The translations under genes and the position numbers were made by a program. The notes under the pieces are model-generated. The model was not told where the DNA came from, ran no database searches, and worked only from the letters and a program-made list of their open reading frames with translations. DNA of 32,000 nucleotides from Candidatus Saccharimonadota bacterium (lineage in GTDB: Bacteria > Patescibacteriota > Patescibacteriia > 2-12-FULL-60-25), in NCBI GenBank assembly GCA_016699205.1, contig CP064964.1, forward strand, positions 960,001-992,000, written 5' to 3'. Below, piece by piece: positions 7,779 through 22,399 of this stretch (position 1 is the first letter of the stretch; each line of letters begins with the position of its first letter).

Positions 7779-7799
7779 GCGCCGTAAGATGCGATACGC

Positions 7800-8874: not shown

Positions 8875-8877
8875 CGT

Positions 8878-9898
8878 ATGTCCAAACGTCTCTTGTTTAT
8901 CACGCCCAAGATCAACGACAAGGACGATGATGTAGCGTTTGCTGCTTTGTGGGCCAAGGGTTTCACGGATGCCGGTTTTGACGTGACGATTATTTGCGGC
9001 GAGAAAGGAGAGACGAGTTTGCCGAATGTGTACTCGGTCGAGCACAAGCAGGGCGGATCGCGCTTGGGATCGCTCATGCGTTTTTGGAAGCTGATGTTTA
9101 CGCTCAAATACGATCGGGTATTTGTGCACATGAACACGCGCTGGCTTGCGGCAGGTGCGTTGTATTGGAAGTTGAAAGGTATTCCGACGTATTTATGGTT
9201 CACGCATTACACGCGTACCGCGACGTTGAAGTTTGGCGAGATTGCGGTTACGCGATTTTTTTGCGCGACCAAGGAATCGCTTCCGCACTATGAAGGCGAT
9301 CCACGTAAGATCGTGACCGGTCATGGTATCGATACGGAATATTGGAATGTGCCGGAATTACCGGAGAGCGAGCGCAAAGATGCAAAGCATTTGTTGGCCG
9401 TGCATCGTATCTCGCGATCCAAACGGCTTGATATTGTGCTGCGTGCGCTTGCGTTGCTTCCGCCTGAATACACGCTGACGCATTATGGTCGTCCGCTTGA
9501 TCCGTCGGCGGATAATAATTATCAGGGCGAGATCGAGTCGCTTGTGAAAGATTTAGGTTTGACCGAGCGCGTGCGGTTTATGGGTTCGGTGCCGATGCCC
9601 TCGCTGCGTGAGATTTATCCGCGTTTCCGCGTGTTTATCAATTTGGTTCCAAAGACGATCGACAAGTCGGCGCTTGAAGCGATGTATTGCGGTTTGACGC
9701 CTGTCATTATTCAGGGGTCATGCAGATGCGATTGGGTATCCGGATTTTCCTAAGGATGAAACACCAGAAGCGATTGCCGAGTTTATTCTCGGGATGCGTA
9801 TTCACTCGCGCGAGGATTTGCGTTCGATTGTCGAGCGCGGGCATAGCATGAAATCGCTGATCGCCAAGATGTCGTCGTACATCATGCCGGGAAAATAA
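8878..9898 (+). pseudogene. GT-B (GT4-like) glycosyltransferase with one +1 frame break
   Basis: ORF 8878..9753 carries the GT-B body (HRISRSKRLDIVLRAL..., INLVPKTIDKSALEAMYCGLTPVII). Removing one G from GGGG 9714-9717 continues as QGHADAIGYPDFPKDETPEAIAEFILGMRIHSREDLRSIVERGHSMKSLIAKMSSYIMPGK, ending at TAA 9896-9898. Confidence 0.7.
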
Positions 9899-9899
9899 T

Positions 9900-11693
9900 A
9901 TGTGTGGCATTAATGGTTTTACATGGCGTGATCCCGGGCTCTTGCGAAAAATGCATGAGCTGACGAGTCATCGCGGTCCGGATGATCAGGGGTTATGGGA
10001 AACCGAGTCCGTGTCTTTTGCGCACAATCGGCTTTCGATTATTGATTTGTCGCCAGGCGGGCATCAGCCGATGGCCTCGCCGGACGGACGATTTACGATT
10101 GTTTTTAATGGGGAGATCTATAATTATCGCGAGCTTCGGTCGCAGTTGTCAGGGGTCAGGTTTCAGTCGGGGTCGGATACGGAGGTTTTGTTGGCTGCAT
10201 GGGAGGCTTGGGGAGAGAAGTGTTTGGAAAAATTGAATGGGATTTTTGCGTTTGCGCTTTGGGATCGTGATGAAAAGAGTTTGCGGCTCGTGCGCGATCA
10301 GATCGGCGTAAAGCCATTGTATTATTTTTATGACGGCAAGCATCTTGCGTTTTCATCTGAGATGAAGGCGCTTTTGCCGATTTTGTCTGAGCGCAAGATC
10401 GACCGTGAAGCGCTGAATGCGTATTTCCGATTGTTGTATGTTCCCGGCGAGAAGACGATGGTGGAGGGTCTCAAGCGTTTGATGCCAGGACATGTCGCGA
10501 CATTTAAAGATGGAGCGTTTGACATTAAGCCGTTTTGGAAATTACAGGAAGGTGCCAGTATCGGTAGTTATGAAGAAGCGGTAGCCGGTGTGCGCGAGCG
10601 CTTGAAGGCGTCGGTTGCAAGGCAACTGGTTTCAGATCGACCTGTGGGCGTGTTTTTGTCCGGAGGCATCGATTCATCGGCTATTCTTGGGTTAGCGAGC
10701 GAAGCGGCTAGTGGACCGCTGAAGGCGTTTACGGTTTCTTACGCCTCGGATTTTCAACAAGAAAAATACAACGCCGATGCAGAGCTTGCTGCAAAGACCG
10801 CAAAACATTTTGGCGCAGAACATCATGTGATTAGATTGGATGCGATGATGGCGCGTGATTTATTTGAGACAACGGCTTGGCACATGGATGAGCCGGTCGC
10901 AAATCATATCCAAACATCGACGTATGCGCTCGCGCAATTTGCCAAGCCGGAAATTACGGTGGCGCTCGGAGGCGACGGCGGTGATGAATTGTTTGGAGGG
11001 TATCCGCGCTATTGGTATGCGGCGCAATTGAATCGATTGCATCGTTTGCCTTTCCCTTGGAGTATTTTTCAATTTGCGCCCAAGGATTCTTGGAAAAAAT
11101 TGGCAGCCAAGTCTGGGTTGGAACGGCATCTTTCTTTTGTAGCGCAAAAAGAGGCGGATATTTCATCTGTCTTGAAACGAGAGATGAATGATCCGTTTGC
11201 AACATCAATGATTCTCTCGCCATATTTTTCTGGTTCTTGGAAAGACCAGACGAACTGGTTGCCGGATGAATCGCTTATCAGAACGGACCGTCTGACGATG
11301 GCTCATGGATTGGAGCAGCGCGTCCCTATTTTGGATGTTGATTTGGTCGAGTACGCGTTCCGTATTCCTTCGAAATATAAATTAGGCGACCGTAAACAGG
11401 GGAAGCGCGTGCTGATCGATGCGATGAAGCCGTGGATTGCTCCGCATCTTTTGAATGAGGAGAAACGAGCTTGGAATTCACCGATGGCCAAGTGGATTCG
11501 AGGTCCGCTTTTGCCTTTTATGAAGGAGATTCTCTCACCAGGATATGCTCCGGGCAGTGAAGCGTATCTCGATTTTGATGGTCTTCAGGCTATGCTTAAA
11601 GATCATGTCGATGTGCGTAAATATGCTCTGGCTCCGCTATGGTCAGCGGTTTCTTTTCAGCTCTGGTATAAGCAGGTTTTTTCTGGTAAATAA
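9900..11693 (+). CDS. asnB: Asparagine synthase (glutamine-hydrolysing) family amidotransferase; intact paralog 1
   Basis: Begins MCGI (N-terminal nucleophile Cys2) and carries GEIYNYRELR, SDTEV and the PP-loop SGGIDSS. It is an uninterrupted 597-aa ORF. Confidence 0.9.
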   Translation: MCGINGFTWRDPGLLRKMHELTSHRGPDDQGLWETESVSFAHNRLSIIDLSPGGHQPMASPDGRFTIVFNGEIYNYRELRSQLSGVRFQSGSDTEVLLAAWEAWGEKCLEKLNGIFAFALWDRDEKSLRLVRDQIGVKPLYYFYDGKHLAFSSEMKALLPILSERKIDREALNAYFRLLYVPGEKTMVEGLKRLMPGHVATFKDGAFDIKPFWKLQEGASIGSYEEAVAGVRERLKASVARQLVSDRPVGVFLSGGIDSSAILGLASEAASGPLKAFTVSYASDFQQEKYNADAELAAKTAKHFGAEHHVIRLDAMMARDLFETTAWHMDEPVANHIQTSTYALAQFAKPEITVALGGDGGDELFGGYPRYWYAAQLNRLHRLPFPWSIFQFAPKDSWKKLAAKSGLERHLSFVAQKEADISSVLKREMNDPFATSMILSPYFSGSWKDQTNWLPDESLIRTDRLTMAHGLEQRVPILDVDLVEYAFRIPSKYKLGDRKQGKRVLIDAMKPWIAPHLLNEEKRAWNSPMAKWIRGPLLPFMKEILSPGYAPGSEAYLDFDGLQAMLKDHVDVRKYALAPLWSAVSFQLWYKQVFSGK

Positions 11694-11698
11694 GCGCT

Positions 11699-12692
11699 AT
11701 GTTAGCTGTCATTTTGGGGACTCGACCCGAGATCATTAAGACGGCTCCGGTGGTGCTTGAGGCCCAGCGGCGCGGTATTCCTGTTGTTATTATCCACACC
11801 GGCCAGCATTACGATGATGCCTTAGACGGGATTTTTTTTCGTGAGTTAGGGTTGCCGCAACCGGTCATGAATTTGGGTGTGGGATCGATGCCTGTGTTGA
11901 AACAGTTGGGAGCGATGATTGATCGTTTGCATGATGCGTTTCAATCGCTTCAGCCAAAAGTCGTCATGGTGCAAGGCGATACGAATTCTGTTTTAGCGGG
12001 TGCATTGGCTGCGCATAAAGTCGGAATCAAGGTTGCGCATTTAGAAGCGGGTTTGCGCAGTGATGATTGGGAGATGCCCGAGGAGGCGAATCGTGTCTTG
12101 GCCGGTTTTGTAGCTGACTTCCATTTTTGTCCGACGGAGGTGCAGCGTGACCGATTGAAAGGCGAGACGGTGATGGATGATGTGCATGTTGTTGGGAATA
12201 CGGTTGTTGATGCGGCGTTACATTATCGGGAGATAGCAAAATCATCTGATGTTTTGATGCGCTTCAAGATTGATGGACCGTATGCATTGTTAACGATGCA
12301 TCGGCCGTCGAATGTCGATGATTCAGAGCGATTGCGCTCGATGATTGAGATGCTTTCACGTCTTGCTGAGCGACGTGCATGGAAAATGGTGTTCCCTGTA
12401 CATCCACGTACCAAGTCTCGTCTTGTAGCCAGCGGCTTGTGGGATGAGCTCTTGGTACGCATTTTGGGGCTGGCAGAGGGCGCTTTTTACGAGTGCCTTG
12501 TGTCTTTGCTCCAATACGGAACGTCCTGAAACGATTGCTGCTGGCGGAAATATTTTGTATGCCGGAAATGATACAGAAGAGCTCAATCGTATTGTAGATA
12601 TCATGTTAGCCAAGCCGCGTGATTGGAATTGCCCTTTTGGTGATGGAGCGACGGCTGGCCGTGTCCTTGATATCCTGCACAAGTATCTATGA
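11699..12692 (+). pseudogene. wecB: Second WecB-type UDP-GlcNAc 2-epimerase paralog, decayed (internal deletion plus two -1 frame breaks)
   Basis: The N-terminal two-thirds are intact (MLAVILGTRPEIIKTAPV...HTGQHYD...AHLEAGLRS...HRPSNVD...FPVHPRTKSR). Between HPRTKSR and TERPET there are only ~32 codons, versus 56 in copy 1, so the PIGY...LVLTDSGG region is largely missing. Reading has to pass through all three frames between ~12484 and ~12512: GLAEGAF, then LRVPCVF, then SNTERPET. Confidence 0.8.
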
Positions 12693-13272
12693 AGCTCGCT
12701 TCTTGGGAATCATTCTTCAATGAGTCGGTGCAAGCCGGATTGCAGCCGGGATGCTGGCTTGATATTGCAGGCGGATAGGCGCTGATGCTTAAGGATGCTG
12801 ATCCCGTGTGATCAAACCGTTGCCGAGAAGGTGGAGTACCGAGTCATGGATCCAGTCGACCTACCACCGGAGTTGGCGATGCATGAACAGCCTTTGAGCT
12901 TGGGACGGCGTTTTTTGCTTAGCTGTATTGGAGCATGTTCCTAGACCTTGGGATGCCGTGCGAGAAATCCATCGTGTTCTCAAGCCTGGGGGAATCGCGT
13001 TTTTTTATGTTCCGTTTCTCTCTCCTTATCATGCGATGCCGGGATATTATGGAGATTATTTCCGTTTTACCGAAGACGCTGTCCGATCGCTTTGCGCAGA
13101 TTTTTCAACTCTGGATTTCCGGCCGATCCGTGGTCCGGTTGAAACGATTATTCATCTTTTGCCAGGCGTACTGAGTCATTCATGGGTGCGCTTGTTGGGT
13201 AGAAGGATTGATTCGTTGCGTAAATCTTCTGGGAAGCAAGTTTCTGGATATAGTTTTTTTGTACGAAAATAA
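12689..13272 (+). pseudogene. Relic of a class I SAM-dependent methyltransferase (nonsense codon plus at least two frame breaks)
   Basis: ATG 12689 overlaps the wecB-2 stop. Motif I WLDIAGG is followed directly by TAG 12776-12778. Stops occur in all three frames within 17 nt (TAG 12776, TGA 12783, TAA 12790). The middle part lies in another frame (DQTVAEKVEYRVMDPVDLPPEL). The C-terminal part is in ORF 12928..13272 (DGVFCLAVLEHVPRPWDAVREIHRVLKPGGIAFFYVPF). Confidence 0.65.
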
Positions 13273-13276
13273 TATT

Positions 13277-14281
13277 ATGAAAATCCTTGTTGTCGGTGTT
13301 GGGTATTGGGGTCCAAATGTCGTCCGTAACCTCGTGGAGTTTCCAGAGGTCGAGTCGATTGGCATTTCCGATCTTGATACGGCTAAGGCGGCTAAAATGG
13401 TTGCGAAATTTCCTAAGACGCATGTAGCCAAGCCGGCACCGGATGCATTTGCTGACGGATACGATGCGGCGATTATTGTGACGCCGGTTGATACGCATGC
13501 CTCCCTTGCGGAAGCGGCTTTAGCAAATGGGTTGCATGTCCTGGTCGAGAAGCCGCTTACTCGTACGATTGATGAGGCAAAACAGTTGATCGCGAAAGCG
13601 GATGCTGCCGACAAGCGATTGATGGTCGGCCATGTATTTCATTATAAACCGGAAGTTCGTGCGTTGGTCGATCTTGTGAAGTCTGGAGAGCTTGGAACGG
13701 TGAAATATTTGGATTCCGTGCGTGTGAATTTGGGATTGTTCCGCAGCGATGTGAATGTTCTTTGGGATTTAGCTCCGCATGACCTTACAATTTTTGAGGC
13801 ATTGCTCGAGAAACAGCCTCAGCGTGTCTCTGCGATTGGGGCGAAACATGTTTTGCACCCAACGAGTCCGCAAGAAACGATGGTGTATATGACGCTGGAT
13901 TATGGCGATGGAACGCTTGGTCATGTACACGTCAATTGGTACTCTCCAGTGAAGCAGCGCTTGATGATGGTTGGCGGTGACAAGAAGATGGCTGTTTATG
14001 ACGATATCAATACCGCGGAACCGATTCGCGTGTATGACCGTGGAACTTATGATCCGACGGGTGATAGCCCGGCTTATCCTGCGTTAAGAACCGGAGCTGT
14101 CGAGATTCCGCATATCAAGCAAGAGGAGCCGCTTCGTGCGCAGCTACGAGAGTTTTTCGCATCCATTACCGAGGGTCGTGCTCCGATGACAGATGGTCAC
14201 GCCGGTTTGCGCGTTGTGAAGGTTTTGGAAGCGGCGATGCGATCGTTGAAACAGGATGGAGTTTTTGTTTCGTTGGACTAA
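13277..14281 (+). CDS. Gfo/Idh/MocA-family NAD(P)-dependent sugar oxidoreductase (WbpB/WlbA-like candidate)
   Basis: Starts MKILVVGVGYWGPNVVRNL (Rossmann GxGxxG) and carries HVLVEKPL (the EKP motif) and LWDLAPHDL. ATG 13277 is preferred over the listed upstream start at 13208, which would overlap the relic gene. Confidence 0.85.
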   Translation: MKILVVGVGYWGPNVVRNLVEFPEVESIGISDLDTAKAAKMVAKFPKTHVAKPAPDAFADGYDAAIIVTPVDTHASLAEAALANGLHVLVEKPLTRTIDEAKQLIAKADAADKRLMVGHVFHYKPEVRALVDLVKSGELGTVKYLDSVRVNLGLFRSDVNVLWDLAPHDLTIFEALLEKQPQRVSAIGAKHVLHPTSPQETMVYMTLDYGDGTLGHVHVNWYSPVKQRLMMVGGDKKMAVYDDINTAEPIRVYDRGTYDPTGDSPAYPALRTGAVEIPHIKQEEPLRAQLREFFASITEGRAPMTDGHAGLRVVKVLEAAMRSLKQDGVFVSLD

Positions 14282-14328
14282 AGCTAACCCTTGATTTTGA
14301 GGGCTGTTTTTGCTAGGTTTGACCTGCC

Positions 14329-15770
14329 ATGCAACAGGAAAAGCCCGCGTTTGGTTACACGAGCAAGGACTATGTCCTTCAAGGTAGCCTTATCATCCTC
14401 TCCGACGAGTCGACGGTTTGGGACGCGCTTTCCAAGCGTGTTCGTACGAGTATTCGTAAGGCCGAGCGATCGGGTGTGCGTATCCGTGAGTTTGCTCCGG
14501 AGCGTGATCTCGAGACGGTCAAGCCGTTTACTCCAAACGATGATGATATCCCGCCGGTTTTTGAGTCCCGTCATCATGGATTTGTTGCCGAGGCGGAAGA
14601 TACGGGCGAGGTGCTGGGCTGGGTGTTGACGGCTGGTGTCGGACGCAAGAACTTCTTGCTCTGCCATGCTTCAACTCAAACGGCAAAAAGTGCGAGACTC
14701 CCAACTTGCTGATGTGGCAGGCGATCAAGCACTCGTTTGGGAATTTCCAGTACTTCGATGTCGGCGTTTCGTATCGGCCTTCTTTGCAGTTCTATTTCTC
14801 CGGCCATCGCCAAAAGAGTTATCCGATGGTGATGCGTCCGACGGATTTGCCGATTGATCTTCGTATTACGCCGTTTGATACGGCTGCGTACGGAATCGAT
14901 CCTGGTCCTGCGGCGGATGGCAAGAAGCTGCTGGATGAAGTGCTTGGTACGGACGTCTGGACGTTCTTTCCACGTGCGATGTTTGCGATCGCTGGGTGTT
15001 TGATGGAGTACCGCGATCAAGGCCGACTGACGGCAGATGATGAAGTACTGATCTCGACGACAACGGGCACGCCTTACATCTCGTCCTGCGTTACACGGGC
15101 GATCGAGAGCGTGTGCAAGTGGTCGCAGATTCCGTCGGACAAGACCAAGGCGGTGTTCCTGATCCATGAGTTTGGTTTTCCGAATCCCCATGCTGCGGAG
15201 ATGCGAGCCTTCTGCGACCAGCGAGGAATTCCGCTCATCGAAGACTTGGCGTATGGCTGGGGCTCGGAAGGGACTGGGAATTGGGGTGATGTAAAAATCG
15301 TTTCATTCACCAAGCTTTTTCCGGTACAGTTTGGCGGTGCCCTCGTGGGTATGTCGATTCCGCCGGAACGTCATTGGAAGGTCTTGCGCAGCTCTGATCC
15401 TGCAAAAGGTGAAGAGGTGCTTGGACTTTTGCCTAAGGTTTGGCAGCCGATGGCCGAGATTCGTGCCAAGCGCCAAGAGATCTGGAATCTTTATGCCGAC
15501 CGACTCGCGCAGGTAATTGATCCTTGGATGGCGATCGAACCGGGTGTGATGCCTGGTGCGTTCATCGCCAAACTCAAGGACGAAGAAGAGATGAAGCGCG
15601 TTCAAGCCTTTGTTCTACCGTTCGGTATCGAGGTTGGGAACTGGTATCATCACGCGTCGATCTTTGTTCCGTGTCACCAACGGATGACTAGCCGTCACGT
15701 TGACTATGTTTCCGGAGCGATCCTCGCAAATTTCCGCGAGAATTGCGGGATTCCCGGAGTGCGCTGCTGA
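14329..15770 (+). pseudogene. Fusion of a FemAB/BioF2-like GNAT (Acetyltransf_6-type) domain with a DegT/DnrJ/EryC1-like PLP-fold domain; one -1 frame break in the N-terminal domain
   Basis: The N-terminal ORF 14329..14712 (VWDALSKRVRTSIRKAERSGVRIREF...FLLCHASTQTAK) continues in ORF 14706..15770 (NLLMWQAIKHSFGNFQYFDVGVS...). The break lies near the A5 run 14685-14689 or the C3 run 14700-14702. In the same frame downstream come DEVLISTTTGTPYISSCV, KAVFLIHEFGFP, PLIEDLAYGWGS and VSFTKLFPVQFGGALVG, which match the DegT-type layout including the Lys position. The family call is by motif memory only. Confidence 0.55.
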
Positions 15771-15773
15771 ACC

Positions 15774-15799
15774 AAGGGGCCTTGTCAAAGGCCCCTTTT
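15774..15799 (+). terminator. Rho-independent-type hairpin after the GNAT-DegT-like gene
   Basis: A perfect 9-bp stem (AAGGGGCCT 15774-15782 with AGGCCCCTT 15789-15797) and a 6-nt loop, followed by a run of only 4 T in total. Confidence 0.5.
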
Positions 15800-15837
15800 C
15801 ATGCTCAAATCGATTTGCACATTTGTCAGGAGAAGCC

Positions 15838-16308
15838 ATGAAACGCGGTGGGTACAAGGCTGGTGTCGAACTCGATCTTTCGGAAGATGTCCATCCCAAC
15901 TTCGCGAAGCTTGGCGATCGTGTGCGGATTCGGACGGGAACTATCCTGTTCGGTTCGGAGCGTGAGCCTCTCGTCATCGGTGACGACGTGTACATCAACG
16001 CGCGTTGCGTGATCCATGGCGGCAGCGCTCAGATCAAGATCGGTAGCCGCGTGACGCTGGCCGTTGGCGTCGTGATCCACAGCGATTCGGGTCCCAATAC
16101 TTCGCCGCTGCTCCAGAAGAGTTATCCGATCATCGCCAAGCCGGTGACGATCGAGGACGATGTCTGGATCGGCGATTACGCCGTGATCCTGCCCGGTGTG
16201 AGAATCGGGAAGGGGAGCGTGGTCGGCACGCACAGCGTCGTGAAGAGTGATGTGGCTCCGGGGACGGTTGTCGCCGGTCAGCCAGCGCGGCTGACCAAGA
16301 AGCTCTGA
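15838..16308 (+). CDS. Hexapeptide-repeat (left-handed beta-helix) sugar N/O-acetyltransferase, WbpD/WlbB-like candidate
   Basis: Has repeating [LIV]-G-x4 hexapeptides (IGDDVYINARCVIHGGSAQIKIGSRVTLAVGVVIH...VTIEDDVWIGDYAVILPGVRIGKGSVVGTHSVV). AGGAGA lies 6 nt upstream of ATG 15838. Confidence 0.85.
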   Translation: MKRGGYKAGVELDLSEDVHPNFAKLGDRVRIRTGTILFGSEREPLVIGDDVYINARCVIHGGSAQIKIGSRVTLAVGVVIHSDSGPNTSPLLQKSYPIIAKPVTIEDDVWIGDYAVILPGVRIGKGSVVGTHSVVKSDVAPGTVVAGQPARLTKKL

Positions 16309-16316
16309 ATCAAAAA

Positions 16317-16352
16317 CACCCCGTCTGCGAACTGCAGACGGGGTGTTTTTTT
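16317..16352. terminator. Bidirectional rho-independent terminator between convergent genes
   Basis: A perfect 12-bp GC-rich stem (CACCCCGTCTGC 16317-16328 with GCAGACGGGGTG 16334-16345) and a 5-nt loop. It is flanked by A5 upstream (16312-16316) and T7 downstream (16346-16352). Confidence 0.85.
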
Positions 16353-16353
16353 A

Positions 16354-17247
16354 TTATTTTGTTGCGTAGACGATCAGGCCCCATGCGTAACGATCTCCTA
16401 GCCACTTACGAATTCCTTGTGGAAGATATCGGAAGATCGGGAATTTTCCGGCAGGCCAACCCTCAACTTCACCCGGAAGACAGAGGACCTCGACACGAAC
16501 GTCGCGGAAGCCGACGGCTTCATGCATCGCTTTTAGTTCCTTTGGTGAGAATACTTTTGTTAATGCATTTCCTCCTTTTGCTGATCCATCCGTGTAACGG
16601 CTCACGAGGCGTGTCGTGTTAAAACGGTATTTGATCAATTTCCCGAGGAGAACTCCACGCAAGAACATGAAGTTGAACCAGTAAGTCCACGAGCGCTTGT
16701 TGTACCAGTAGGAGCATGTTTTTCCGCCTGGTTTCAATACTCGGTAAACTTGCTTGAGAGCGCCTGGCGTATCGGGCATATGCATGAAGCAGCCCCAGCC
16801 AAGAACGTAATCGAATGAGGCATCCGGAAATTCAAGATTTTGCGCGTCCATGCGCATGAGCTTTGCGTGCTGATTTTTCAATCGGAGATGCTCGGTTGTC
16901 ATCTTGATAGCTTCGTCGGTGAGATCGATTCCAGTGACGTTTGCACCGGCTTTTGCGAAGTCGACCACGGACCAACCGCTGCCTATCGCGATATCCAAAA
17001 CGTCCTTTCCGTTCAATTCTGCGTATGGAACCATTTTAGAAATGAGCGGGTCCTCTGGTTTTTCATAAGTGGCACCTTTCCACCATTTTCGCATACGACG
17101 CTCGATGTTGTTGAAGGTGTTCAGGTCGAGTGTTGAAACTCGTCCCGTTAAATCATTAGCTTCAGAAGTACCGACTCCGGCGGTAAATGGGTGGTTATCC
17201 CACCAGTCGCGAACTTTCTCCGTGTGCTTTGGGTCTGGTTGGTTCAT
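16354..17247 (-). CDS. Class I SAM-dependent methyltransferase
   Basis: 297 aa with VLDIAIGSGWSVVDFAKAGANVTGIDL (motifs I/II), FPDASFDYVLGWGCFMHM and YRVLKPGG. Confidence 0.85.
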   Translation of the reverse strand: MNQPDPKHTEKVRDWWDNHPFTAGVGTSEANDLTGRVSTLDLNTFNNIERRMRKWWKGATYEKPEDPLISKMVPYAELNGKDVLDIAIGSGWSVVDFAKAGANVTGIDLTDEAIKMTTEHLRLKNQHAKLMRMDAQNLEFPDASFDYVLGWGCFMHMPDTPGALKQVYRVLKPGGKTCSYWYNKRSWTYWFNFMFLRGVLLGKLIKYRFNTTRLVSRYTDGSAKGGNALTKVFSPKELKAMHEAVGFRDVRVEVLCLPGEVEGWPAGKFPIFRYLPQGIRKWLGDRYAWGLIVYATK

Positions 17248-17359
17248 AGAAATCAGAAGAAGACTAACATGGTGAAATCAAGCTTGAAAGGGCGTTGATA
17301 GGCTAGGGATAAAGTTCTTGCATAAAGCTGTTTTTACCTGCTAAGGTGCGGGCAATTGT
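17248..17359. promoter_or_regulatory. Divergent intergenic region, presumed promoters for the minus-strand methyltransferase and the DegT-GT2 gene
   Basis: This is one of only two non-coding gaps over 100 nt in the window, and it sits between divergently oriented genes. Weak sigma70-like pairs are present (TTGAAA 17284-17289 with GATAAA 17308-17313; TTGCAT 17318-17323 with TAAGGT 17342-17347). None is convincing. Confidence 0.3.
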
Positions 17360-19150
17360 ATGGGTGCTCCCCTGATCGATACCAAGCGGGATGCGCAGGC
17401 GCATCGGGACGAGTATTTGGCCGCAGCGGCGCGTGTTATCGACTCTGGGGCATATTCTTTAGGGCCAGAAGTGGAGGCGTTTGAGAAGGAGTTTGCGGCG
17501 TTTTTGGGGGTGAAGCATGTCGTTGGGGTTAATGGAGGAACCGAGGCATTGTATGGGTCGTTTTTGGCGCTCGGTATCGGGCCGGGCGATGAAGTGATTC
17601 TTCCGACGAATTCATTTATCGCGACAGCAGAAGCGGTGATGATGGCCGGAGCCAAGCCCGTGTTTTGCGATGTTGATCAAGCGACGCATCTCCTTGATTT
17701 GGGAACATGCGAACGTTTGGTGAATAAAAAAACAAAAGCCATTGTCCCTGTCCATCTGTACGGTTTGGCTTGTGACATGGATGCGGTGATGGCGTTTGCC
17801 GAGAAGTATAAACTCGCCGTTGTTGAGGATGCGTGTCAGGCGCACGGCGCCTATTGGAGCGGGAAACGCGTCGGGTCGTTTGGTGTTACGGGCTGTTTTA
17901 GTTTCTATCCGACAAAAAATCTTGGTGCGATCGGAGAAGGCGGAGCGATCTCAACGAACGATGATTCCATAGCGGAGAAACTGCGTGCGATCCGTTTGCA
18001 TGGAATCATGAAAGAAAAATATCGCCATGATATTTTTGGGACCAATTTGAAGATGGAAGCGCTGCAAGCGGCATTTTTACGTTTGCGGCTAGGCCGATTG
18101 GATGCGGCTAATGCACGCCGTCGGGAAATCGCGCGGGCGTATCGCGCGGGTTTTGCCGGACTGCCGGTTTCATTTCCCGGTGATTTTGGTGATCGACATG
18201 TCTATCATTGGTTTATTTTGGATACGGGACACCGCGAGGCTTTGATGAAATTTTTGTCGGAGCGAGGGATTGGAAACGGGATCCATTATCCGCTACCAAT
18301 CCATCTCCAGCCTTCCATGTTGCGTTGGGGCGGCAAGAAGGGCGATTGTCCGGAGGCGGAAGCGGTGACATCGAGAATTGTTTCTCTGCCGATTTTTCCA
18401 GAGTTGACGGATGATGAAGTGGCGCAGGTTATTTCCGCGGTACGTGATTTTTTTGCCGATAAGCCGCGTATCAGGGCATCAGTACCAATATTGACTTTGA
18501 ATTCTCGTTCTACGATCGAGAGACTGTTACCAAGATTAATACAGAATTTTGACGATGTATTTATAATGGATGGCAATAGTACGGATGGGACGCAAGACTA
18601 TGTGCGTTCTCTTGGTGTACGTGTCGAAAAACAATTTGATCACGATATTCCAAGTTCACGAATTCAAGATTTTGTGCAAATGCGTTTTCGGCTCTGGTCA
18701 AAAGCAAAAAATGATTGGTTGTTTATCATTGATTCAGATGAATTTCCTACGTCGGCTCTCGTGGAGCGTGTTCGGGCTATTATCGCGGGAGATCGTCATG
18801 GGGAGGCGCATCGTTTTTGTCGTTTAGCAAGATTGCCGAATGGACAAATGATCGAACGAGCTACTTTTTATCCGGACTTATATATTCGATTGTTTCGCCA
18901 GTCGGACAAATTAACGTTAGCGAAGAAGAGAGTGCACGAACGGTTTATCGTCCCGAGTGATGTTATTCTAATCGACCATTCAGAAGCGCTGGTGGCGTAT
19001 TGGCCTGAATTATCGGTTTTTGAGGCAAAATCAGAGAAATATTTATCGCTTGACCTTGAATCATCAGTTATCGATTGGAAAACGTTTTGGCGTTGGATAT
19101 TTTGGTATAATATCCGACATGGCTTCGGTATCATTTTCAAATCTTTTTAG
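17360..19150 (+). CDS. DegT/DnrJ/EryC1/StrS-family sugar aminotransferase (N-terminal ~370 aa) fused to a GT2 (WaaE/KdtX-like) glycosyltransferase domain (C-terminal ~220 aa)
   Basis: The N-terminal domain has YSLGPEVEAFEKEFAAFLG, GGTEALYGSFLALGIGPGDEVILPTNSFIATAEAV, VVEDACQAHGA and SFYPTKNLGAIGEGGAI (PLP Lys). The C-terminal domain has VPILTLNSRSTIERLLP...FIMDGNSTDGT...LFIIDSDEF (DxD)...YPDLYIRLFR...VHERF. It is a single uninterrupted 596-aa ORF. Confidence 0.8.
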   Translation: MGAPLIDTKRDAQAHRDEYLAAAARVIDSGAYSLGPEVEAFEKEFAAFLGVKHVVGVNGGTEALYGSFLALGIGPGDEVILPTNSFIATAEAVMMAGAKPVFCDVDQATHLLDLGTCERLVNKKTKAIVPVHLYGLACDMDAVMAFAEKYKLAVVEDACQAHGAYWSGKRVGSFGVTGCFSFYPTKNLGAIGEGGAISTNDDSIAEKLRAIRLHGIMKEKYRHDIFGTNLKMEALQAAFLRLRLGRLDAANARRREIARAYRAGFAGLPVSFPGDFGDRHVYHWFILDTGHREALMKFLSERGIGNGIHYPLPIHLQPSMLRWGGKKGDCPEAEAVTSRIVSLPIFPELTDDEVAQVISAVRDFFADKPRIRASVPILTLNSRSTIERLLPRLIQNFDDVFIMDGNSTDGTQDYVRSLGVRVEKQFDHDIPSSRIQDFVQMRFRLWSKAKNDWLFIIDSDEFPTSALVERVRAIIAGDRHGEAHRFCRLARLPNGQMIERATFYPDLYIRLFRQSDKLTLAKKRVHERFIVPSDVILIDHSEALVAYWPELSVFEAKSEKYLSLDLESSVIDWKTFWRWIFWYNIRHGFGIIFKSF

Positions 19151-19270
19151 TGAGATGTCTCGCATATATCCAAGGTAAAATTGTCACGCCATGGGCCTAC
19201 GAGCGAGTATTTTTGGTTTACAAGTATCGTATCGTGAAGGGTTATTGGCACCGGTTAAATCAAAATCCGT

Positions 19271-20050
19271 ATGAGCGACATTCAACGCAAACAAGACGAT
19301 TGGAAATGGCAATGGGAGCGCTATGAGGATAAAGAGCGCTGGTTGTTTCATGATTGGATTTTTCCTAACACGTTGGAGGCTTTTCGTGGAAAGCGTGTTT
19401 TGGATGCGGGTTGCGGCGGTGGTCAGCACACTTCATTTGTCGCACCATATGCGGCGGAGATTGTGGCGGCTGATCTGAATGCACTCGATGTCGCCAAGGA
19501 ACGTACCAAGCAGTTTACCAATATCCAGTACGTTGAAGGGGATATTGCCAAGATTACATTTGATCAACTTTTTGATATCGTTTATTGCGTCGGCGTTATC
19601 CATCACACGGATGATCCGGACGCGACGTTCAAGAATTTGGCGAGTCTCACCAAGCCCGGCGGAAGAACGATTATTTGGTGCTACTCATATGAGGGAAATT
19701 TCTTGAACCGAGTGTTTGTCGAGGGTGCGAAGCGCTTGATTCTCATGCGCTTGCCTAAACCCGCTTTGAGAATGTTTTCAAAAATCATGACAGCGTTGGT
19801 TTATATTCCGGTGTATACGATTTACTTTTTGCCGCTGCCTTTTCTTCCGTATTACGAGTACTTCCAGAATTGGCGCAAACTTTCTTTTGAGCGCAATGAT
19901 TTGAACGTGTTTGATAAGCTGAATGCTCCACAGACAGACTTTATTAAAAAGGAACGCGCAGAGCGTTGGTTTACGGAGAACGGATATCGCGATATCTCTG
20001 TCACGCCCTATGTAGGCGTGAGTTGGCGGGCGTCGGGGACCAAGACGTAG
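19271..20050 (+). CDS. Class I SAM-dependent methyltransferase
   Basis: Has VLDAGCGGGQHTSFV (motif I), AADLN, FDIVYCVGVIHHTDDP and LTKPGGRTIIW. Confidence 0.85.
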   Translation: MSDIQRKQDDWKWQWERYEDKERWLFHDWIFPNTLEAFRGKRVLDAGCGGGQHTSFVAPYAAEIVAADLNALDVAKERTKQFTNIQYVEGDIAKITFDQLFDIVYCVGVIHHTDDPDATFKNLASLTKPGGRTIIWCYSYEGNFLNRVFVEGAKRLILMRLPKPALRMFSKIMTALVYIPVYTIYFLPLPFLPYYEYFQNWRKLSFERNDLNVFDKLNAPQTDFIKKERAERWFTENGYRDISVTPYVGVSWRASGTKT

Positions 20051-20055
20051 CTATT

Positions 20056-20799
20056 ATGGAACAACCCGTCGGATCTTTAACGTTTAATCCCGCGATATCA
20101 AAAGCGATGGGGTATCAGCGTTGGATTTTTGATTTGATGAAGCCCGTGATCGGGCTTCATGTCCTCGAGATTGGGGTTGGATCAGCGCCATTTGTAGGAT
20201 TGTATTCTGGAATTCGTCGATGGTATCCGTGCGACATTGATTCGAAAAGCGTGGCGCGCGCTCTTGAAATTGGTACCTCTGCTTTACCAGGAGTACAAAT
20301 CAAGGGTTATGTAGGCGATGCTGGTTCTGATGCTTTTTGGGATCAGCTCAGTGAGTCCGAGCCCGATACGGTGATCGCTGTAAATGTCATGGAGCATGTG
20401 AAGGACGATGCGCTTTTCCTTAGGCGAATCTATCAAGTGTTTGACCGATCTGGTTCTGGAAGTGTCGGTCTATTTGTTCCTGCGCTACCATTTATTTATG
20501 GCAGTATGGATGCTTCGGCGGGTCACTATCGACGATATACAAGGTCCGGGCTTATGAAGCTTTGCCAGGATGCTGGATTTGTTGTCGAGCACATTCAGTA
20601 TGTTAATTTTCCAGGGATTTTTTATTGGTGGTGGCGTGGAAAGATAAGAAAAACACGAGATCTCGCTGATCCCGGCTTAGAAAATAGTATTTCTAAAATA
20701 GATCAGTACGCCGTTCCTATTATCCGTTTCTTTGAAGATCGTGTCCCTCCACCCATTGGACAATCTTTAGTAATTCGGCTAAAGAGGGTATCAGTATGA
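20056..20799 (+). CDS. Class I SAM-dependent methyltransferase
   Basis: Has VLEIGVGSAPFVG, PDTVIAVNVMEHVKDD and a C-terminal region. ATG 20056 (MEQPVGSL) is preferred to the listed 19966 start, which overlaps the upstream gene. Confidence 0.8.
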   Translation: MEQPVGSLTFNPAISKAMGYQRWIFDLMKPVIGLHVLEIGVGSAPFVGLYSGIRRWYPCDIDSKSVARALEIGTSALPGVQIKGYVGDAGSDAFWDQLSESEPDTVIAVNVMEHVKDDALFLRRIYQVFDRSGSGSVGLFVPALPFIYGSMDASAGHYRRYTRSGLMKLCQDAGFVVEHIQYVNFPGIFYWWWRGKIRKTRDLADPGLENSISKIDQYAVPIIRFFEDRVPPPIGQSLVIRLKRVSV

Positions 20800-21659
20800 A
20801 ATCACTTTCGGTCATCATTCCGGCACTAAATGAAGCAGATGGAATTGCTCCTACGCTCGACCGAATCAAGGCCGTTGCCCAAGTCCAAGGATGGGATTTG
20901 GAGCTGATTGTTGTTGATGATGGCAGCAAGGATGGGACTGGGGATAAGGCTCGGGAAGCAGGCGCGACTGTTATCCGGCATCCCACGAACGGGGGATACG
21001 GCTTGTCTTTGCAGGATGGAATCCGTCTTGCGAAGCATCCGTTGGTTGCGATTACGGATGCAGACGGTACCTATCCGATCGAAGAGCTGCCAAAGCTGTA
21101 CTCGATGGTTGCGGACGAGGGTTACGATATGGCTGTTGGTGCTAGAACCGGTACGGAGTATAAAAAGGGACTGCTCAAATATCCGGCACGCATCATGTTC
21201 CGATTACTTGCCGAATATGTCGCGGGACGTCGTATCCCGGATATCAATTCTGGTTTGCGCGTCATGCGCCGCGAGAAATTACTGCCGCATCTCTCGCGAA
21301 CCTGTCTTGGATTTTCTTTCACGACATCGATCACGCTGATTTTTTTCTTGAACGGCTTTTTTGTCGGATACACGCCGATCAATTATGCGGTGCGTATGGG
21401 TAAGAGCAAGGTGCGTCACATTAAAGATACGCTACGTACGACGCAGATTATGGTGTCAGTGATTGCGCACTATAATCCATTGAAATTGTTTTTGCTGATC
21501 GCGCTTTTCTGTTTGCTCGCTGCATTGGTTGCGGTGTTTTTGGGATGGCTGATCGGTAGCACGTGGCTAGGATGGGTTTCAGCTGTATTAGTTGGCGCTG
21601 CTCCGATCTGTTTTGCTGTGGGTTGTTTGTCTGAAGGTGTAAGACTTTCGTCGACTTAA
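20796..21659 (+). CDS. GT2 glycosyltransferase with C-terminal transmembrane helices (GtrB/ArnC/Dpm1-like polyprenol-phosphate glycosyltransferase)
   Basis: Has LSVIIPALNEADGI...LIVVDDGSKDGT...AITDADGTYP, followed by two hydrophobic C-terminal segments (LFLLIALFCLLAALVAVFLGWLIG and VSAVLVGAAPICFAVGCL). ATGA overlap with the upstream gene. Confidence 0.85.
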   Translation: MKSLSVIIPALNEADGIAPTLDRIKAVAQVQGWDLELIVVDDGSKDGTGDKAREAGATVIRHPTNGGYGLSLQDGIRLAKHPLVAITDADGTYPIEELPKLYSMVADEGYDMAVGARTGTEYKKGLLKYPARIMFRLLAEYVAGRRIPDINSGLRVMRREKLLPHLSRTCLGFSFTTSITLIFFLNGFFVGYTPINYAVRMGKSKVRHIKDTLRTTQIMVSVIAHYNPLKLFLLIALFCLLAALVAVFLGWLIGSTWLGWVSAVLVGAAPICFAVGCLSEGVRLSST

Positions 21660-22399
21660 ATTTTTCTCCACTGGGCGACCAGCATTCCTGATGCGAATCG
21701 TTTTGAGAAAATGGGCGACAGCCACTTTTCTAGTTTGAACAAGAAGGGCGATAGTATCGTTTTTAATTTCTTTGGCATTCTCCAGACCATGGAATTCAGA
21801 ACAAATATGTACGCCGGACCACCGATATACGTACAAGATATCTCTTGGAAATGTCCTGACGATTTTTGAAGAAGTTCCTCGTAATTGATCGCCTCTTCAT
21901 TTTCTTCGAAGAGATTATCGATGCTGTACCACATTTTGCGAATGATGTTCAGGAACGATTTGTCATGCGGTTCGGCAAAACACAATATTCCATTTGGCCT
22001 CAGTAATCGATGAAATTCCTTAATCCCTTCCATCGTGTGCGGCGGAAGGTGATGCAACCCGCCCACAATACAGATTACGTCGTAGGTGTTTGCAGGTAGG
22101 TTGGTTTTGGTTGCAGAGGCATGCACGGTGCGTGTTTGCGGGCGTTTTTCTTGATAGATGCTTAGTGCATTGCTAGAGATATCCAAAGCGGTAATACTAG
22201 CGTGGTTCCTAACAAGAAAGTCTCCGCAAGCTCCGGAGCCGCACATGGCCTCCATAACTTCTTTACCCGCCAGATCGATGTTTTTAAACAGATGCGGGTT
22301 TAAAAATTCCTCACGATATTTCTCGCTTTCAGCGTCGTGATAGTGGCTGTCGTATAGCGAGATAATGTTGTCGTAGTGCGCTTCCTGGGAGGATTCCAT
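21656..22399 (-). CDS. Class I SAM-dependent methyltransferase
   Basis: Has VMEAMCGSGACGDFL (motif I), ALDIS, YDVICIVGGLHHLP and LLRPNGILCFAEP. Its stop overlaps the stop of the convergent GT2 gene (TTAA 21656-21659). Confidence 0.8.
   Translation of the reverse strand: MESSQEAHYDNIISLYDSHYHDAESEKYREEFLNPHLFKNIDLAGKEVMEAMCGSGACGDFLVRNHASITALDISSNALSIYQEKRPQTRTVHASATKTNLPANTYDVICIVGGLHHLPPHTMEGIKEFHRLLRPNGILCFAEPHDKSFLNIIRKMWYSIDNLFEENEEAINYEELLQKSSGHFQEISCTYIGGPAYIFVLNSMVWRMPKKLKTILSPFLFKLEKWLSPIFSKRFASGMLVAQWRKI

What the first reader, a model, noticed from the sequence alone, without database searches (positions are those of the whole stretch)
14329..15770. Unusual fusion of a FemAB/BioF2-like GNAT domain with a DegT-like PLP domain
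The ~165 N-terminal residues look like one Acetyltransf_6/FemAB-type domain (RTSIRKAERSGVRIREF ... NLLMWQAIKHSFGNFQYFDVGVS). They run in the same frame into a ~310-residue domain with a DegT-type layout (DEVLIS.., ..LIHEFGFP.., IEDLAYGWGS, SFTKLFPVQFGGAL). FemAB-family enzymes transfer aminoacyl or acyl groups to amines, some using aminoacyl-tRNA. Coupling one to an aminotransferase-like domain suggests a bifunctional enzyme that makes an amino sugar and then N-acylates or aminoacylates it. I do not recognise this architecture as a described enzyme. It carries one frame break near 14685-14702, and my domain calls rest on remembered motifs.
Basis: inference. Interest (0 to 1): 0.65.

Follow-up and report, generated by a model that had tools for sequence, protein, structure and literature searches.

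The report
Fem-type GNAT fused to PLP domain
The window holds a frame-broken copy of a conserved but unstudied candidate-phyla (CPR) bacterial protein that joins half of a tRNA-dependent aminoacyl transferase to a shortened sugar-aminotransferase-like domain, and it probably decorates a 3-amino sugar of the cell surface.

Summary
Window 14329-15770 (+) encodes a 480-aa two-domain protein broken by one missing base at about 14677. Inserting one C restores a protein 97% identical to an intact homolog (P0001).

About 90 intact ~480-aa homolog clusters exist, almost all in Patescibacteria: Uhrbacteria, Peribacteria, Peregrinibacteria and Taylorbacteria.

- **N-terminal domain.** It is a single Fem-type GNAT lobe. 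Its best structural matches are all aminoacyl-tRNA-dependent transferases (Sbb17/Sba18, FemX, FemA, MprF). It corresponds to lobe 2 of two-lobed FemAB proteins.
- **C-terminal domain.** It is a shortened, very divergent DegT-fold PLP domain that keeps the Schiff-base Lys (K329) and Asp (D306).

The gene always sits in the order sugar 3-dehydrogenase, fusion, hexapeptide acetyltransferase, canonical DegT aminotransferase.

A canonical aminotransferase is always present. Nine of 92 orthologs in the same slot have lost the PLP lysine but keep the GNAT motifs. Outside CPR, the short PLP protein and a two-lobed Fem-like protein are separate neighbouring genes in FdtA/FdtB clusters.

My best reading is aminoacyl or acyl transfer to an NDP-3-amino sugar, with the PLP-like domain as acceptor-binding or editing partner. 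No paper I searched describes this protein, and its function is inferred, not shown.

The parts
14329..15770 (+). Whole gene for the 480-aa Fem-lobe/PLP-like fusion protein, frame-broken in this window
   Evidence: One inserted base restores 480 aa that are 97% identical to P0001.
14676..14678 (+). Site of the 1-nt deletion, where reading passes from frame 1 to frame 3. The frame-1 stop codon is at 14710-14712.
   Evidence: This is the only gap in the gene alignment with L001.
14329..14831 (+). Single Fem-type GNAT lobe, residues 1 to about 168, equivalent to lobe 2 of FemAB proteins
   Evidence: Foldseek on the lobe model puts Sbb17/Sba18, FemX, FemA and MprF on top. An exhaustive profile search matches the C-terminal half of 320-360 aa FemAB proteins. 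Pfam PF13480 and PF02388 hit at family level.
14443..14460 (+). Basic helix motif R39-T-S-I-R43-K44, nearly invariant: R39 in 92/92, R43 in 91/92 and K44 in 89/92 members
   Evidence: Conservation is. It matches positions 163-193 of the Pfam FemAB profile, the start of lobe 2. In FemX a positively charged helix of lobe 2 is proposed to bind the tRNA acceptor stem (PMC12945691). Equating the two helices is my inference.
14832..14912 (+). Conserved connecting segment (YPMVMRPTDLP...ITPFDT), with Y165 and P182 invariant and P166 nearly so (90/92)
   Evidence: The same ...SPF... start is seen in the stand-alone short PLP proteins.
14913..15767 (+). Shortened, divergent DegT-fold PLP-like domain, residues about 196-480
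   Evidence: PF01041 matches in part. A PDB profile search hits TlmJ, QdtB and PseC at E 1e-8 to 1e-10. Foldseek top 50 hits are sugar aminotransferases or dehydrases at 13-19% identity and TM 0.47-0.61. hhalign to the window's own canonical DegT gives E 9e-6.
15243..15245 (+). D306 of the IED motif, aligned with the pyridine-N-binding Asp of DegT enzymes
   Evidence: 90/92 conserved.
15312..15314 (+). K329 of the SFTK motif, aligned with the Schiff-base Lys of DegT enzymes
   Evidence: Conserved in 83/92 members and replaced by A, R, N or T in 9.
13277..14281 (+). Upstream partner: Gfo/Idh/MocA oxidoreductase. Its best NCBIfam hit is UDP-GlcNAc 3-dehydrogenase, below that model's cutoff.
   Evidence: E 4e-50. 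It lies immediately upstream of the fusion, or with one gene between, in all 27 CPR-type loci that extend upstream.
15838..16308 (+). Downstream partner: hexapeptide-repeat acetyltransferase (156 aa). It is followed by a strong bidirectional terminator at 16312-16350.
17360..19150 (+). Canonical full-length DegT aminotransferase fused to a GT2 domain
   Evidence: PseC, ArnB and WecE models at E 1e-69 to 1e-76. A canonical DegT gene is present near the fusion in every locus.

Best explanation
**What it is (shown).** The gene encodes a two-domain enzyme of a conserved surface-glycan operon in Patescibacteria. In this window one missing base breaks the frame.
- The N-terminal ~168 residues are one Fem-type GNAT lobe. 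It equals lobe 2 of FemX-like transferases, which in FemX carries the basic helix proposed to bind the tRNA acceptor stem (PMC12945691).
- The usual first lobe, which helps hold the acceptor, is absent.
- A shortened DegT-fold PLP-like domain sits in its place, and the model predicts the two domains as one rigid body.

**How it most likely works (inferred).**
1. The neighbouring Gfo/Idh/MocA enzyme oxidises a UDP-GlcNAc-type sugar at C3.
2. The canonical DegT enzyme makes the 3-amine.
3. The fusion's PLP-like domain binds this nucleotide sugar.
4. The Fem lobe transfers an aminoacyl group onto it, most likely from aminoacyl-tRNA.
5. Where the lysine is kept (83/92 members, including this one), the PLP site may also act on the free alpha-amine of the new aminoacyl group, for example by L-to-D epimerisation.
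6. The neighbouring hexapeptide acetyltransferase may then cap that amine.
For: **Shown.**
- Intact 480-aa orthologs exist and show strong purifying selection.
- The AlphaFold2 model has pLDDT 94.7 and pTM 0.91, so the two domains are predicted as one rigid body.
- The 24 best Foldseek hits for the GNAT lobe are all aminoacyl-tRNA-dependent transferases. The top hits, Sbb17/Sba18, are deposited in complex with streptothrisamine, an amino-sugar intermediate that the related enzyme Orf11 glycylates from Gly-tRNA (PMC12945691).
- An exhaustive profile search places the lobe on the C-terminal half of 320-360 aa proteins. All 7 sampled pass the Pfam FemAB and PF13480 cutoffs.
- The PLP-like domain matches DegT by sequence profile and by fold, and K329 and D306 align with the catalytic residues.
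- The order 3-dehydrogenase, fusion, hexapeptide acetyltransferase, canonical DegT holds in most of 28 CPR-type loci spanning 34-97% identity.
- Outside CPR, the short PLP protein and a two-lobed Fem-like protein are adjacent or one to two genes apart in six of six inspected FdtA/FdtB clusters. So the partnership does not depend on the fusion.
- Lys-less orthologs keep the GNAT motifs and, in the two loci inspected, the syntenic slot.

[quoted passage not shown] So products of this kind do exist.
Against: - No donor or acceptor has been tested.
- The lobe lacks an obvious equivalent of FemX Lys305. That position aligns by eye with the nearly invariant F157 or the variable S158, and I could not run a structural superposition.
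- PDB sequence searches with the lobe find only weak hits, to CoA-dependent GNATs (E 0.03-0.1). An acyl-CoA donor is therefore not excluded.
- The neighbouring hexapeptide acetyltransferase, or the formyltransferase in Flavobacterium paronense L032, could be the ordinary N-acylase of the sugar 3-amine. That would leave no free amine for the Fem lobe on the same molecule.
- The epimerase idea rests only on chemical logic and on known glycan structures.
- In this window the gene is frame-broken, and so may be inactive in this organism.
Confidence: 0.4

Rival explanations
1. **The first reader's model.** The DegT-like domain is itself the aminotransferase. It converts the 3-keto sugar from the neighbouring dehydrogenase into the 3-amino sugar, and the fused GNAT then N-acylates or aminoacylates it by substrate channelling.
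For: - K329 and D306 are kept in 83/92 and 90/92 members.
- The gene lies directly downstream of the 3-dehydrogenase in nearly all loci.
- The closest folds are sugar aminotransferases.
Against: - A canonical full-length DegT gene is present in every locus.
- Nine of 92 orthologs lack the Lys and the HEFGF motif. The two whose loci were inspected sit in the same slot.
- The split-gene clusters already hold FdtB.
- The domain lacks about 50 N-terminal residues of DegT enzymes and matches only profile positions 111-186.
Confidence: 0.22
2. **Acyl-CoA donor.** The GNAT lobe uses an acyl-CoA (acetyl or another short acyl group) rather than aminoacyl-tRNA. The protein would then be an N-acyltransferase of the amino sugar with a PLP-like binding domain.
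For: - The lobe has the GNAT fold.
- Sequence-only PDB hits are to CoA-dependent GNATs such as RimI-like and IAA acetyltransferase (E 0.03-0.1).
- Many PF13480 proteins have no demonstrated donor (my own knowledge).
- There is only one lobe, unlike every proven tRNA-dependent Fem enzyme.
Against: - The 24 best structural matches are all tRNA-dependent enzymes, and CoA-dependent GNATs rank lower.
- No Q/R-x-x-G-x-G/A pyrophosphate-binding motif follows strand 4. The sequence there is CHASTPNGKKCETPNLL, read directly from the window.
- The basic helix R39/R43/K44 is nearly invariant.
- The nearest non-fused relatives are FemAB-family proteins.
Confidence: 0.25
3. **Real pseudogene.** The frame break is a true mutation and the gene is dead in this organism, as part of the decay of the whole glycan locus.
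For: - Relative to intact orthologs in L001/L002, the window is also broken in other genes: both WecB-like epimerases (7800-8874 and 11699-12692), the GT at 8878-9895 and the methyltransferase at 12690-13272.
- Two asparagine-synthase-like genes (25335-26910 and 28859-30862) are each split into two ORFs, with no ortholog comparison made.
- Some lesions are multi-base deletions, for example at 12454-12504.
Against: - In the target gene, 131 of 144 differing codons are synonymous, on both sides of the break. Any inactivation would therefore be very recent.
- Three of the four clean single-base indels lie in or beside short homopolymers, which is typical of consensus errors in long-read assemblies.
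- The related JGI contigs L001 and L002 each carry their own isolated breaks in other genes.
Confidence: 0.4
4. **Programmed -1 frameshift.** Ribosomal or transcriptional slippage on the A5 run at 14685-14689 restores the full-length protein.
For: Any -1 shift between 14677 and the frame-1 stop at 14710 would yield a full-length product. A slip at the A5 run would change only three residues, QTA for PNG.
Against: - All 92 homologs are single uninterrupted ORFs.
- There is no X XXY YYZ heptamer in the right frame, read directly from the sequence.
- Other genes in the window are broken at unrelated sites.
Confidence: 0.02

Closest known systems
Sba18/Sbb17/Orf11: Gly-tRNA-dependent enzymes that aminoacylate the amino sugar of streptothrisamine in BD-12 and streptothricin-type antibiotic pathways
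   Same: They are the best structural matches of the N-terminal lobe (9wqx, 9wqw and 9wqy; E 1e-8 to 3e-7). They have the Fem-type GNAT fold, and the acceptor is the amine of an amino sugar (PMC12945691).
   Different: They have two GNAT lobes (285-288 aa) and no PLP domain. They act in secondary metabolism in Streptomyces, and the acceptor is not a nucleotide sugar. Identity is only 15-17%.
FemX, FemA and MurM peptidoglycan aminoacyl transferases (Pfam PF02388)
   Same: The lobe-2 fold and motifs match (R..IRKA helix...AS....K....P.LL.W......G...fD.G.S). FemX also uses a UDP-linked acceptor. Relatives found by profile search pass the FemAB cutoffs.
   Different: Only one lobe is present. There is no clear Lys305 equivalent. 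The window protein itself scores below the FemAB cutoff (13.2 against 24 bits). The context is polysaccharide, not peptidoglycan.
DegT/DnrJ/EryC1/StrS sugar aminotransferases such as WbpE, QdtB, PseC and ArnB
   Same: The fold-type I PLP fold matches, and the Lys and Asp align. The context is nucleotide-sugar genes.
   Different: The domain is about 285-310 aa rather than 360-400. The N-terminal segment is missing, the SGT..AL motif is replaced by FFPRAM, and the Gln of EDxAQA is replaced by Tyr. Identity is 13-19% and TM 0.47-0.61. Nine of 92 orthologs have lost the Lys.
Stand-alone short DegT-like proteins (about 305 aa; labelled PF27889 PLP_IMCC1989 in precomputed Pfam hits) of Flavobacterium, Pedobacter, Bacteroidia and Clostridium
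   Same: These are direct homologs of the C-terminal domain with the same motifs (NHEFGFP, IEDCA, SxPK, PCHQ). They sit adjacent to, or within two genes of, a Fem-like gene, with an acetyl- or formyltransferase gene nearby.
   Different: They are not fused. The partner has two lobes. The 3-keto sugar comes from the FdtA isomerase on a dTDP-6-deoxyhexose rather than from a Gfo-type dehydrogenase. Public records give them only family-level names (DegT family aminotransferase, dTDP-4-amino-4,6-dideoxygalactose transaminase) or 'hypothetical protein'.
DhpH of dehydrophos biosynthesis, and BioF2-type proteins (PLP domain joined to a Fem-like or PF13480 GNAT domain)
   Same: They are precedents for one polypeptide that joins a fold-type I PLP domain to a Fem-like GNAT. 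DhpH-C uses Leu-tRNA (PMC12945691). That DhpH has an N-terminal PLP domain, and the BioF2 architecture, are from my own knowledge and were not checked here.
   Different: The domain order is reversed in DhpH. The PLP subfamilies differ (not DegT). The substrates are phosphonate or amino-acid compounds, not sugars. No sequence relationship was tested.

Membership tests
DegT/DnrJ/EryC1/StrS aminotransferase family (PF01041) | Score above the Pfam gathering threshold | tested here: met
   33.6 bits against 19.8, but only profile positions 111-186 of 360 are matched. 45/47 family members hit.
DegT/DnrJ/EryC1/StrS aminotransferase family (PF01041) | Fold-type I PLP fold closest to sugar aminotransferases | tested here: met
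   The Foldseek top 50 are all DegT-type enzymes, with E about 1e-12 to 5e-10, TM (target) 0.47-0.61 and 13-19% identity.
DegT/DnrJ/EryC1/StrS aminotransferase family (PF01041) | Schiff-base Lys and pyridine-N Asp in the aligned positions | tested here: met
   K329 and D306 align with the SFYPTK Lys and VVED Asp of the window's canonical DegT. Across the family, K is in 83/92 and D in 90/92 members.
DegT/DnrJ/EryC1/StrS aminotransferase family (PF01041) | Full-length domain of about 360-400 aa, including the N-terminal segment and the SGT..AL phosphate-binding motif | tested here: not met
   The domain is about 285-310 aa. The N-terminal profile positions 1-110 are not matched, and FFPRAM stands in place of SGT..AL.
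DegT/DnrJ/EryC1/StrS aminotransferase family (PF01041) | PLP binding and keto-sugar transamination | not testable with these tools
   This needs spectroscopy and an enzyme assay. Loss of the Lys in 9/92 orthologs argues that transamination is not the conserved core function.
FemABX aminoacyl-tRNA-dependent transferases (PF02388 / PF13480) | Score above the Pfam thresholds | tested here: inconclusive
   The window protein scores 13.2 bits for FemAB against a cutoff of 24. The homologs P0029 and P0073 pass PF13480 (26-27 bits against 22). At E <= 0.01, 24/47 members hit PF13480 and 11/47 hit FemAB.
FemABX aminoacyl-tRNA-dependent transferases (PF02388 / PF13480) | Structural similarity to the Fem-type GNAT lobe | tested here: met
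   The top 24 Foldseek hits are Sbb17/Sba18, FemX, FemA and MprF/aaPGS. The profile search lands on lobe 2 of FemAB proteins.
FemABX aminoacyl-tRNA-dependent transferases (PF02388 / PF13480) | Two tandem GNAT lobes that form the acceptor site | tested here: not met
   There is one lobe only, residues 1 to about 168. The PLP-like domain follows directly.
FemABX aminoacyl-tRNA-dependent transferases (PF02388 / PF13480) | Equivalent of the catalytic Lys305 of FemX | tested here: inconclusive
   By motif alignment done by eye, that position falls on F157 (91/92 F) or S158 (variable). No structural superposition was possible.
FemABX aminoacyl-tRNA-dependent transferases (PF02388 / PF13480) | Use of aminoacyl-tRNA as donor | not testable with these tools
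   This needs an in vitro assay with charged tRNA.
WbpB/WbpE/WbpD-type pathway to 3-amino (di-N-acyl) UDP sugars (context only) | Gfo/Idh/MocA 3-dehydrogenase, DegT aminotransferase, acetyltransferase and WecB-like 2-epimerase encoded together | tested here: met
   The dehydrogenase and the acetyltransferase do not reach any equivalog cutoff, so the exact sugar is not established.

The most novel reading that the evidence does not exclude
The Fem-like transferase and the short PLP protein, fused in Patescibacteria and adjacent in Bacteroidota and Clostridia, may form a widespread, undescribed two-step system. In step one an amino acid is loaded from aminoacyl-tRNA onto a nucleotide-linked 3-amino sugar. 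In step two PLP chemistry edits that amino acid on the sugar, for example by L-to-D epimerisation, before it is N-capped. This would explain how glycan decorations such as N-acetyl-D-allo-threonyl and other N-acyl-aminoacyl groups arise. It would also add nucleotide sugars to the substrates of tRNA-dependent transferases.
Probability: 0.2. Interest if true: 0.8.

Novelty: new variant of a known kind. Interest (0 to 1): 0.62.

Why it matters
**Amino-acid decorations on surface glycans.** Amide-linked amino acids, including D-forms and N-acetylated forms, are well-known decorations of bacterial surface glycans (PMC7685785). I found no description of enzymes that attach them to amino sugars through a Fem-like/PLP pair.

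**A predictive gene pairing.** The fusion points to a functional partnership between half of a tRNA-dependent transferase and a shortened PLP enzyme. That partnership recurs as neighbouring genes in at least 589 protein clusters of cultured and uncultured bacteria. If the model holds, a large 'DegT family' or 'hypothetical' gene pair would gain a testable function. tRNA-dependent chemistry would be extended to nucleotide sugars.

**Cell-surface biology of Patescibacteria.** The result would also show how these small-genome bacteria diversify their cell surface.

**An evolutionary point.** A Fem enzyme whose acceptor lobe is replaced by another fold is of interest in its own right.

Tried and rejected
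- **First repair attempt.** I first added an A to the A5 run at 14685-14689. This gave QTA instead of the conserved PNG. The alignment with L001 showed the real lesion is at 14677.
- **PDB sequence search with the GNAT-lobe profile.** It found only weak hits to generic GNATs and no Fem enzyme. The relationship needed a fold search and an exhaustive profile search.
- **hhalign of the GNAT-lobe profile against the L026 and L027 Fem-like neighbours.** The result was not significant (probability below 2%). A local hmmsearch was weak, at 15 bits for L030. The link between the CPR lobe and those particular neighbours therefore rests on shared family membership (PF13480 and TIGR03019), not on direct similarity.
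- **Methyltransferase domain of the triple fusions P0024/P0026.** It is not clearly orthologous to the window's neighbouring methyltransferases.
- **Literature searches.** Searches for the fusion, for PLP_IMCC1989, for FemAB in Patescibacteria, for the genes behind Qui3N/Fuc3N aminoacyl decorations and for tRNA-dependent aminoacylation of nucleotide sugars gave nothing specific. The paper on the DhpH PLP domain could not be retrieved.
- **Programmed frameshifting.** I considered it and rejected it.
- **tRNA genes.** None are in the window.
Full report
**1. What is in the sequence**

Window 14329-15770 (+) contains two overlapping ORFs in different frames: 14329..14712 (127 aa) and 14706..15770 (354 aa). 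I aligned the DNA with the intact ortholog in locus L001. The gene shows 152 mismatches, 133 of them at third codon positions. It shows exactly one gap: a base missing from the window at about 14677 (TCAACT-CAAACG against TCAACTCCCAACG).

Inserting one C there restores a 480-aa protein. It differs from protein P0001 at 13 of 480 positions. Of the 144 codons that differ from L001, 131 are synonymous and 13 are not. This ratio holds both upstream (23 to 2) and downstream (108 to 11) of the break.

**2. Is the break real or an artefact?**

The selection pattern shows that the gene was functional until very recently, or still is.

The window carries several other disruptions relative to intact orthologs:
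- single-base indels at 7939 (T7 to T6), 8287 and 9718
- a multi-base lesion at 12454-12504 in the second WecB-like epimerase
- a degraded methyltransferase at 12690-13272

Two asparagine-synthase-like genes are also each split into two ORFs, but I had no ortholog to compare them with.

The related contigs L001 and L002 each have isolated breaks of their own. I cannot tell assembly error from recent decay without the reads. I put roughly 60% on artefact and 40% on a real lesion. Programmed frameshifting is very unlikely, because all 92 homologs are uninterrupted.

**3. The fusion is a real, conserved protein family**

A search of 5.8 billion proteins found about 90 clusters of ~480-aa full-length homologs at 35-97% identity. 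The representative-genome scan named the following:
- Candidatus Uhrbacteria, Peribacteria/Peribacteraceae, Peregrinibacteria, Taylorbacteria and unclassified Patescibacteria
- one Methylomirabilis MAG
- one MAG labelled Gammaproteobacteria

Two clusters (P0024 and P0026, 689-690 aa) carry an extra N-terminal methyltransferase domain.

**4. The N-terminal domain**

For the window protein alone, Pfam gives only a sub-threshold FemAB match (E 0.039). Across 47 members, 24 hit PF13480 (Acetyltransf_6) and 11 hit FemAB.

An AlphaFold2 model of residues 1-192 (pLDDT 87.7) was searched against the PDB. The 24 best matches are all aminoacyl-tRNA-dependent transferases:
- Sbb17/Sba18 (deposited in complex with streptothrisamine, an amino-sugar intermediate)
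- Weissella FemX
- S. aureus FemA and FemX
- MprF and aminoacyl-phosphatidylglycerol synthases

L/F-transferase and ATE1 appear further down the list, and CoA-dependent GNATs also rank lower.

An exhaustive HMMER search with the lobe profile found 1391 proteins at E <= 0.001. After the fusions, the hits are mostly 320-360 aa proteins matched over residues about 130-310, with some single-lobe proteins of about 170-260 aa. All seven of the 320-360 aa proteins I sampled pass the Pfam FemAB and PF13480 cutoffs.

The lobe is therefore lobe 2 of the Fem architecture. It keeps a nearly invariant basic helix (R39 in 92/92, R43 in 91/92, K44 in 89/92). In FemX, a positively charged helix of lobe 2 is proposed to contact the tRNA acceptor stem (PMC12945691). 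Equating the two helices is my inference.

Two features argue for caution. No equivalent of FemX Lys305 is evident. The first lobe, which helps form the acceptor site in FemX, is absent.

**5. The C-terminal domain**

- PF01041 matches above its cutoff, but only over profile positions 111-186.
- The family profile hits solved sugar aminotransferases such as TlmJ, QdtB and PseC at E 1e-8 to 1e-10.
- The full-length model (pLDDT 94.7, pTM 0.91) retrieves only DegT-type enzymes, at 13-19% identity and TM 0.47-0.61.
- hhalign against the window's own canonical DegT aligns K329 with the Schiff-base Lys and D306 with the PLP-binding Asp.

The domain is about 50-80 residues shorter than canonical enzymes and has its own motifs: FFPRAM, TTTxxPY(I/V)SSCVT, IHEFGFP, IEDxAYGWG and LP(C/V)HQR.

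Precomputed Pfam hits label some relatives PF27889 (PLP_IMCC1989), a model absent from the local library.

**6. Genomic context**

The order below is nearly invariant in 28 CPR-type loci spanning 34-97% identity:
1. Gfo/Idh/MocA oxidoreductase
2. the fusion
3. hexapeptide acetyltransferase
4. canonical DegT, often followed by or fused to a GT2 domain

Other points:
- WecB-like 2-epimerases, asparagine-synthase-type amidotransferases, SAM methyltransferases and glycosyltransferases surround this core.
- The oxidoreductase's best NCBIfam match is UDP-GlcNAc 3-dehydrogenase (E 4e-50, below the equivalog cutoff).
- This is the layout of a WbpB/WbpE/WbpD-type route to 3-amino UDP sugars, with the fusion as an extra member.
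- In the window, a strong terminator at 16312-16350 follows the acetyltransferase gene.

**7. Three results that change the interpretation**

(a) A canonical aminotransferase is always present, so the fusion is not needed to make the amine.

(b) Nine of 92 orthologs have replaced K329 (by A, R, N or T) and eroded the HEFGF motif. Their GNAT motifs are untouched, and D357, K360, R382 and H450 stay invariant. Two of them, P0042 and P0024, occupy exactly the same syntenic slot. PLP chemistry is thus dispensable in some lineages, while the Fem lobe and the scaffold are not.

(c) Outside CPR, the short PLP protein exists on its own.
- It is about 305 aa and keeps the Lys, in at least 589 clusters from Flavobacterium, Pedobacter, Bacteroidia and Clostridium.
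- In six inspected loci it lies adjacent to, or within two genes of, a 311-330 aa protein.
- For five of these, the 311-330 aa proteins are homologous to each other. They are Fem-like by PF13480 in L030 and by TIGR03019 pepcterm_femAB for L026 and L027. The sixth, on the P0102 contig, could not be checked because no DNA was held.
- The clusters hold FdtA, and five of the six also show a canonical DegT. Next to the pair is a hexapeptide acetyltransferase or, in F. paronense, a formyltransferase.

The partnership between a Fem-like transferase and the short PLP protein therefore recurs with two unrelated ways of making a 3-keto sugar. This points to the 3-amino sugar as the common substrate.

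**8. Most likely mechanism (inferred)**

The dehydrogenase and the canonical DegT make an NDP-3-amino sugar. The PLP-like domain takes the place of the missing Fem lobe 1 as the acceptor-binding half. The Fem lobe then transfers an aminoacyl group onto the sugar, probably from aminoacyl-tRNA.

Where the Lys is kept, the PLP site may act on the new free alpha-amine. Epimerisation would fit a later N-capping step, because it preserves the amine. The neighbouring acetyl- or formyltransferase may then cap it.

Weak points:
- The donor is untested.
- An acyl-CoA donor is not excluded.
- The neighbouring acyltransferases may simply be the ordinary FdtC/WbpD-type enzymes.
- The epimerase idea is only chemical logic.

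The donor question overlaps with both of the other models.

**9. Comparison with known systems, and novelty**

The closest known systems are Sba18/Orf11-type and FemX-type transferases for the lobe, and DegT enzymes for the other domain.

As precedents for a PLP plus Fem-like fusion there are DhpH and BioF2-type proteins. The PLP part of that statement is from my own knowledge and was not verified here.

The protein fails defining features of both parent families: it lacks two lobes, and it lacks a full-length DegT domain. I therefore file it as a new variant built from known folds, not as a member of either enzyme family in the functional sense.

No paper in the searchable library describes the fusion or the gene pair.

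**10. Verdict**

The finding is a real, conserved and uncharacterised architecture, and it predicts a wider functional pairing. Function remains inferred, and the copy in this window is frame-broken. Interest is 0.62.

Noticed in passing
window 7800-8874, 8878-9895, 11699-12692, 12690-13272, 25335-26910, 28859-30862; probably also 1603-5262: Many other genes of the locus are frame-broken or degraded relative to intact orthologs in L001/L002. These include both WecB-like epimerases, a GT1 and a methyltransferase. Two asparagine-synthase-like genes are each split into two ORFs, with no ortholog comparison made. Three ORFs at 1603-5262 (355, 413 and 473 aa) probably correspond to one ~1221-aa double-GT4 protein in relatives; I did not verify this.
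   Followed up: partly
window 4491-18741 compared with 19269-25760: Similarity to L001/L002 is mosaic. DNA identity is about 83-85% over 4491-18741 but about 97% over 19269-25760, where several proteins are 99-100% identical. This suggests a recombination boundary near 18.7-19.3 kb inside the glycan locus.
   Followed up: partly
window 17360-19150: The canonical DegT aminotransferase is fused to a GT2 glycosyltransferase domain. It is 596 aa here and 638 aa in relatives, and the C-terminal part is divergent or truncated. The two are separate genes in Peribacteria, the Methylomirabilis MAG and other non-Uhrbacteria loci.
   Followed up: partly
P0024 and P0026 (locus L029 8001-10070): These are triple fusions of methyltransferase, Fem lobe and PLP-like domain (689-690 aa). 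Both have lost the PLP lysine. They sit in the same operon slot.
   Followed up: partly
window 9900-11693, 25335-26910, 28859-30862: The locus holds three asparagine-synthase-type (WbpG-like) amidotransferase genes. This hints at amidated or amidino sugar derivatives.
   Followed up: no
window 16312-16350: A strong 18-bp-stem bidirectional terminator lies between the hexapeptide acetyltransferase gene and the convergent methyltransferase gene. A second GC-rich hairpin at about 15776-15800 lies between the fusion and the acetyltransferase gene.
   Followed up: no
window 1-32000: GC skew is positive throughout (0.07-0.31 per 2-kb window), and almost all genes are on the + strand.
   Followed up: no
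L032 7914-8789 (Flavobacterium paronense): In this split-gene cluster a Formyl_trans_N protein occupies the position directly after the short PLP gene. Other clusters have a hexapeptide acetyltransferase there.
   Followed up: no
L009 (contig CAYZVS010000004.1): A MAG labelled 'uncultured Gammaproteobacteria bacterium' carries an 82%-identical fusion with the full Uhrbacteria-type gene order. The contig is probably mis-binned.
   Followed up: no
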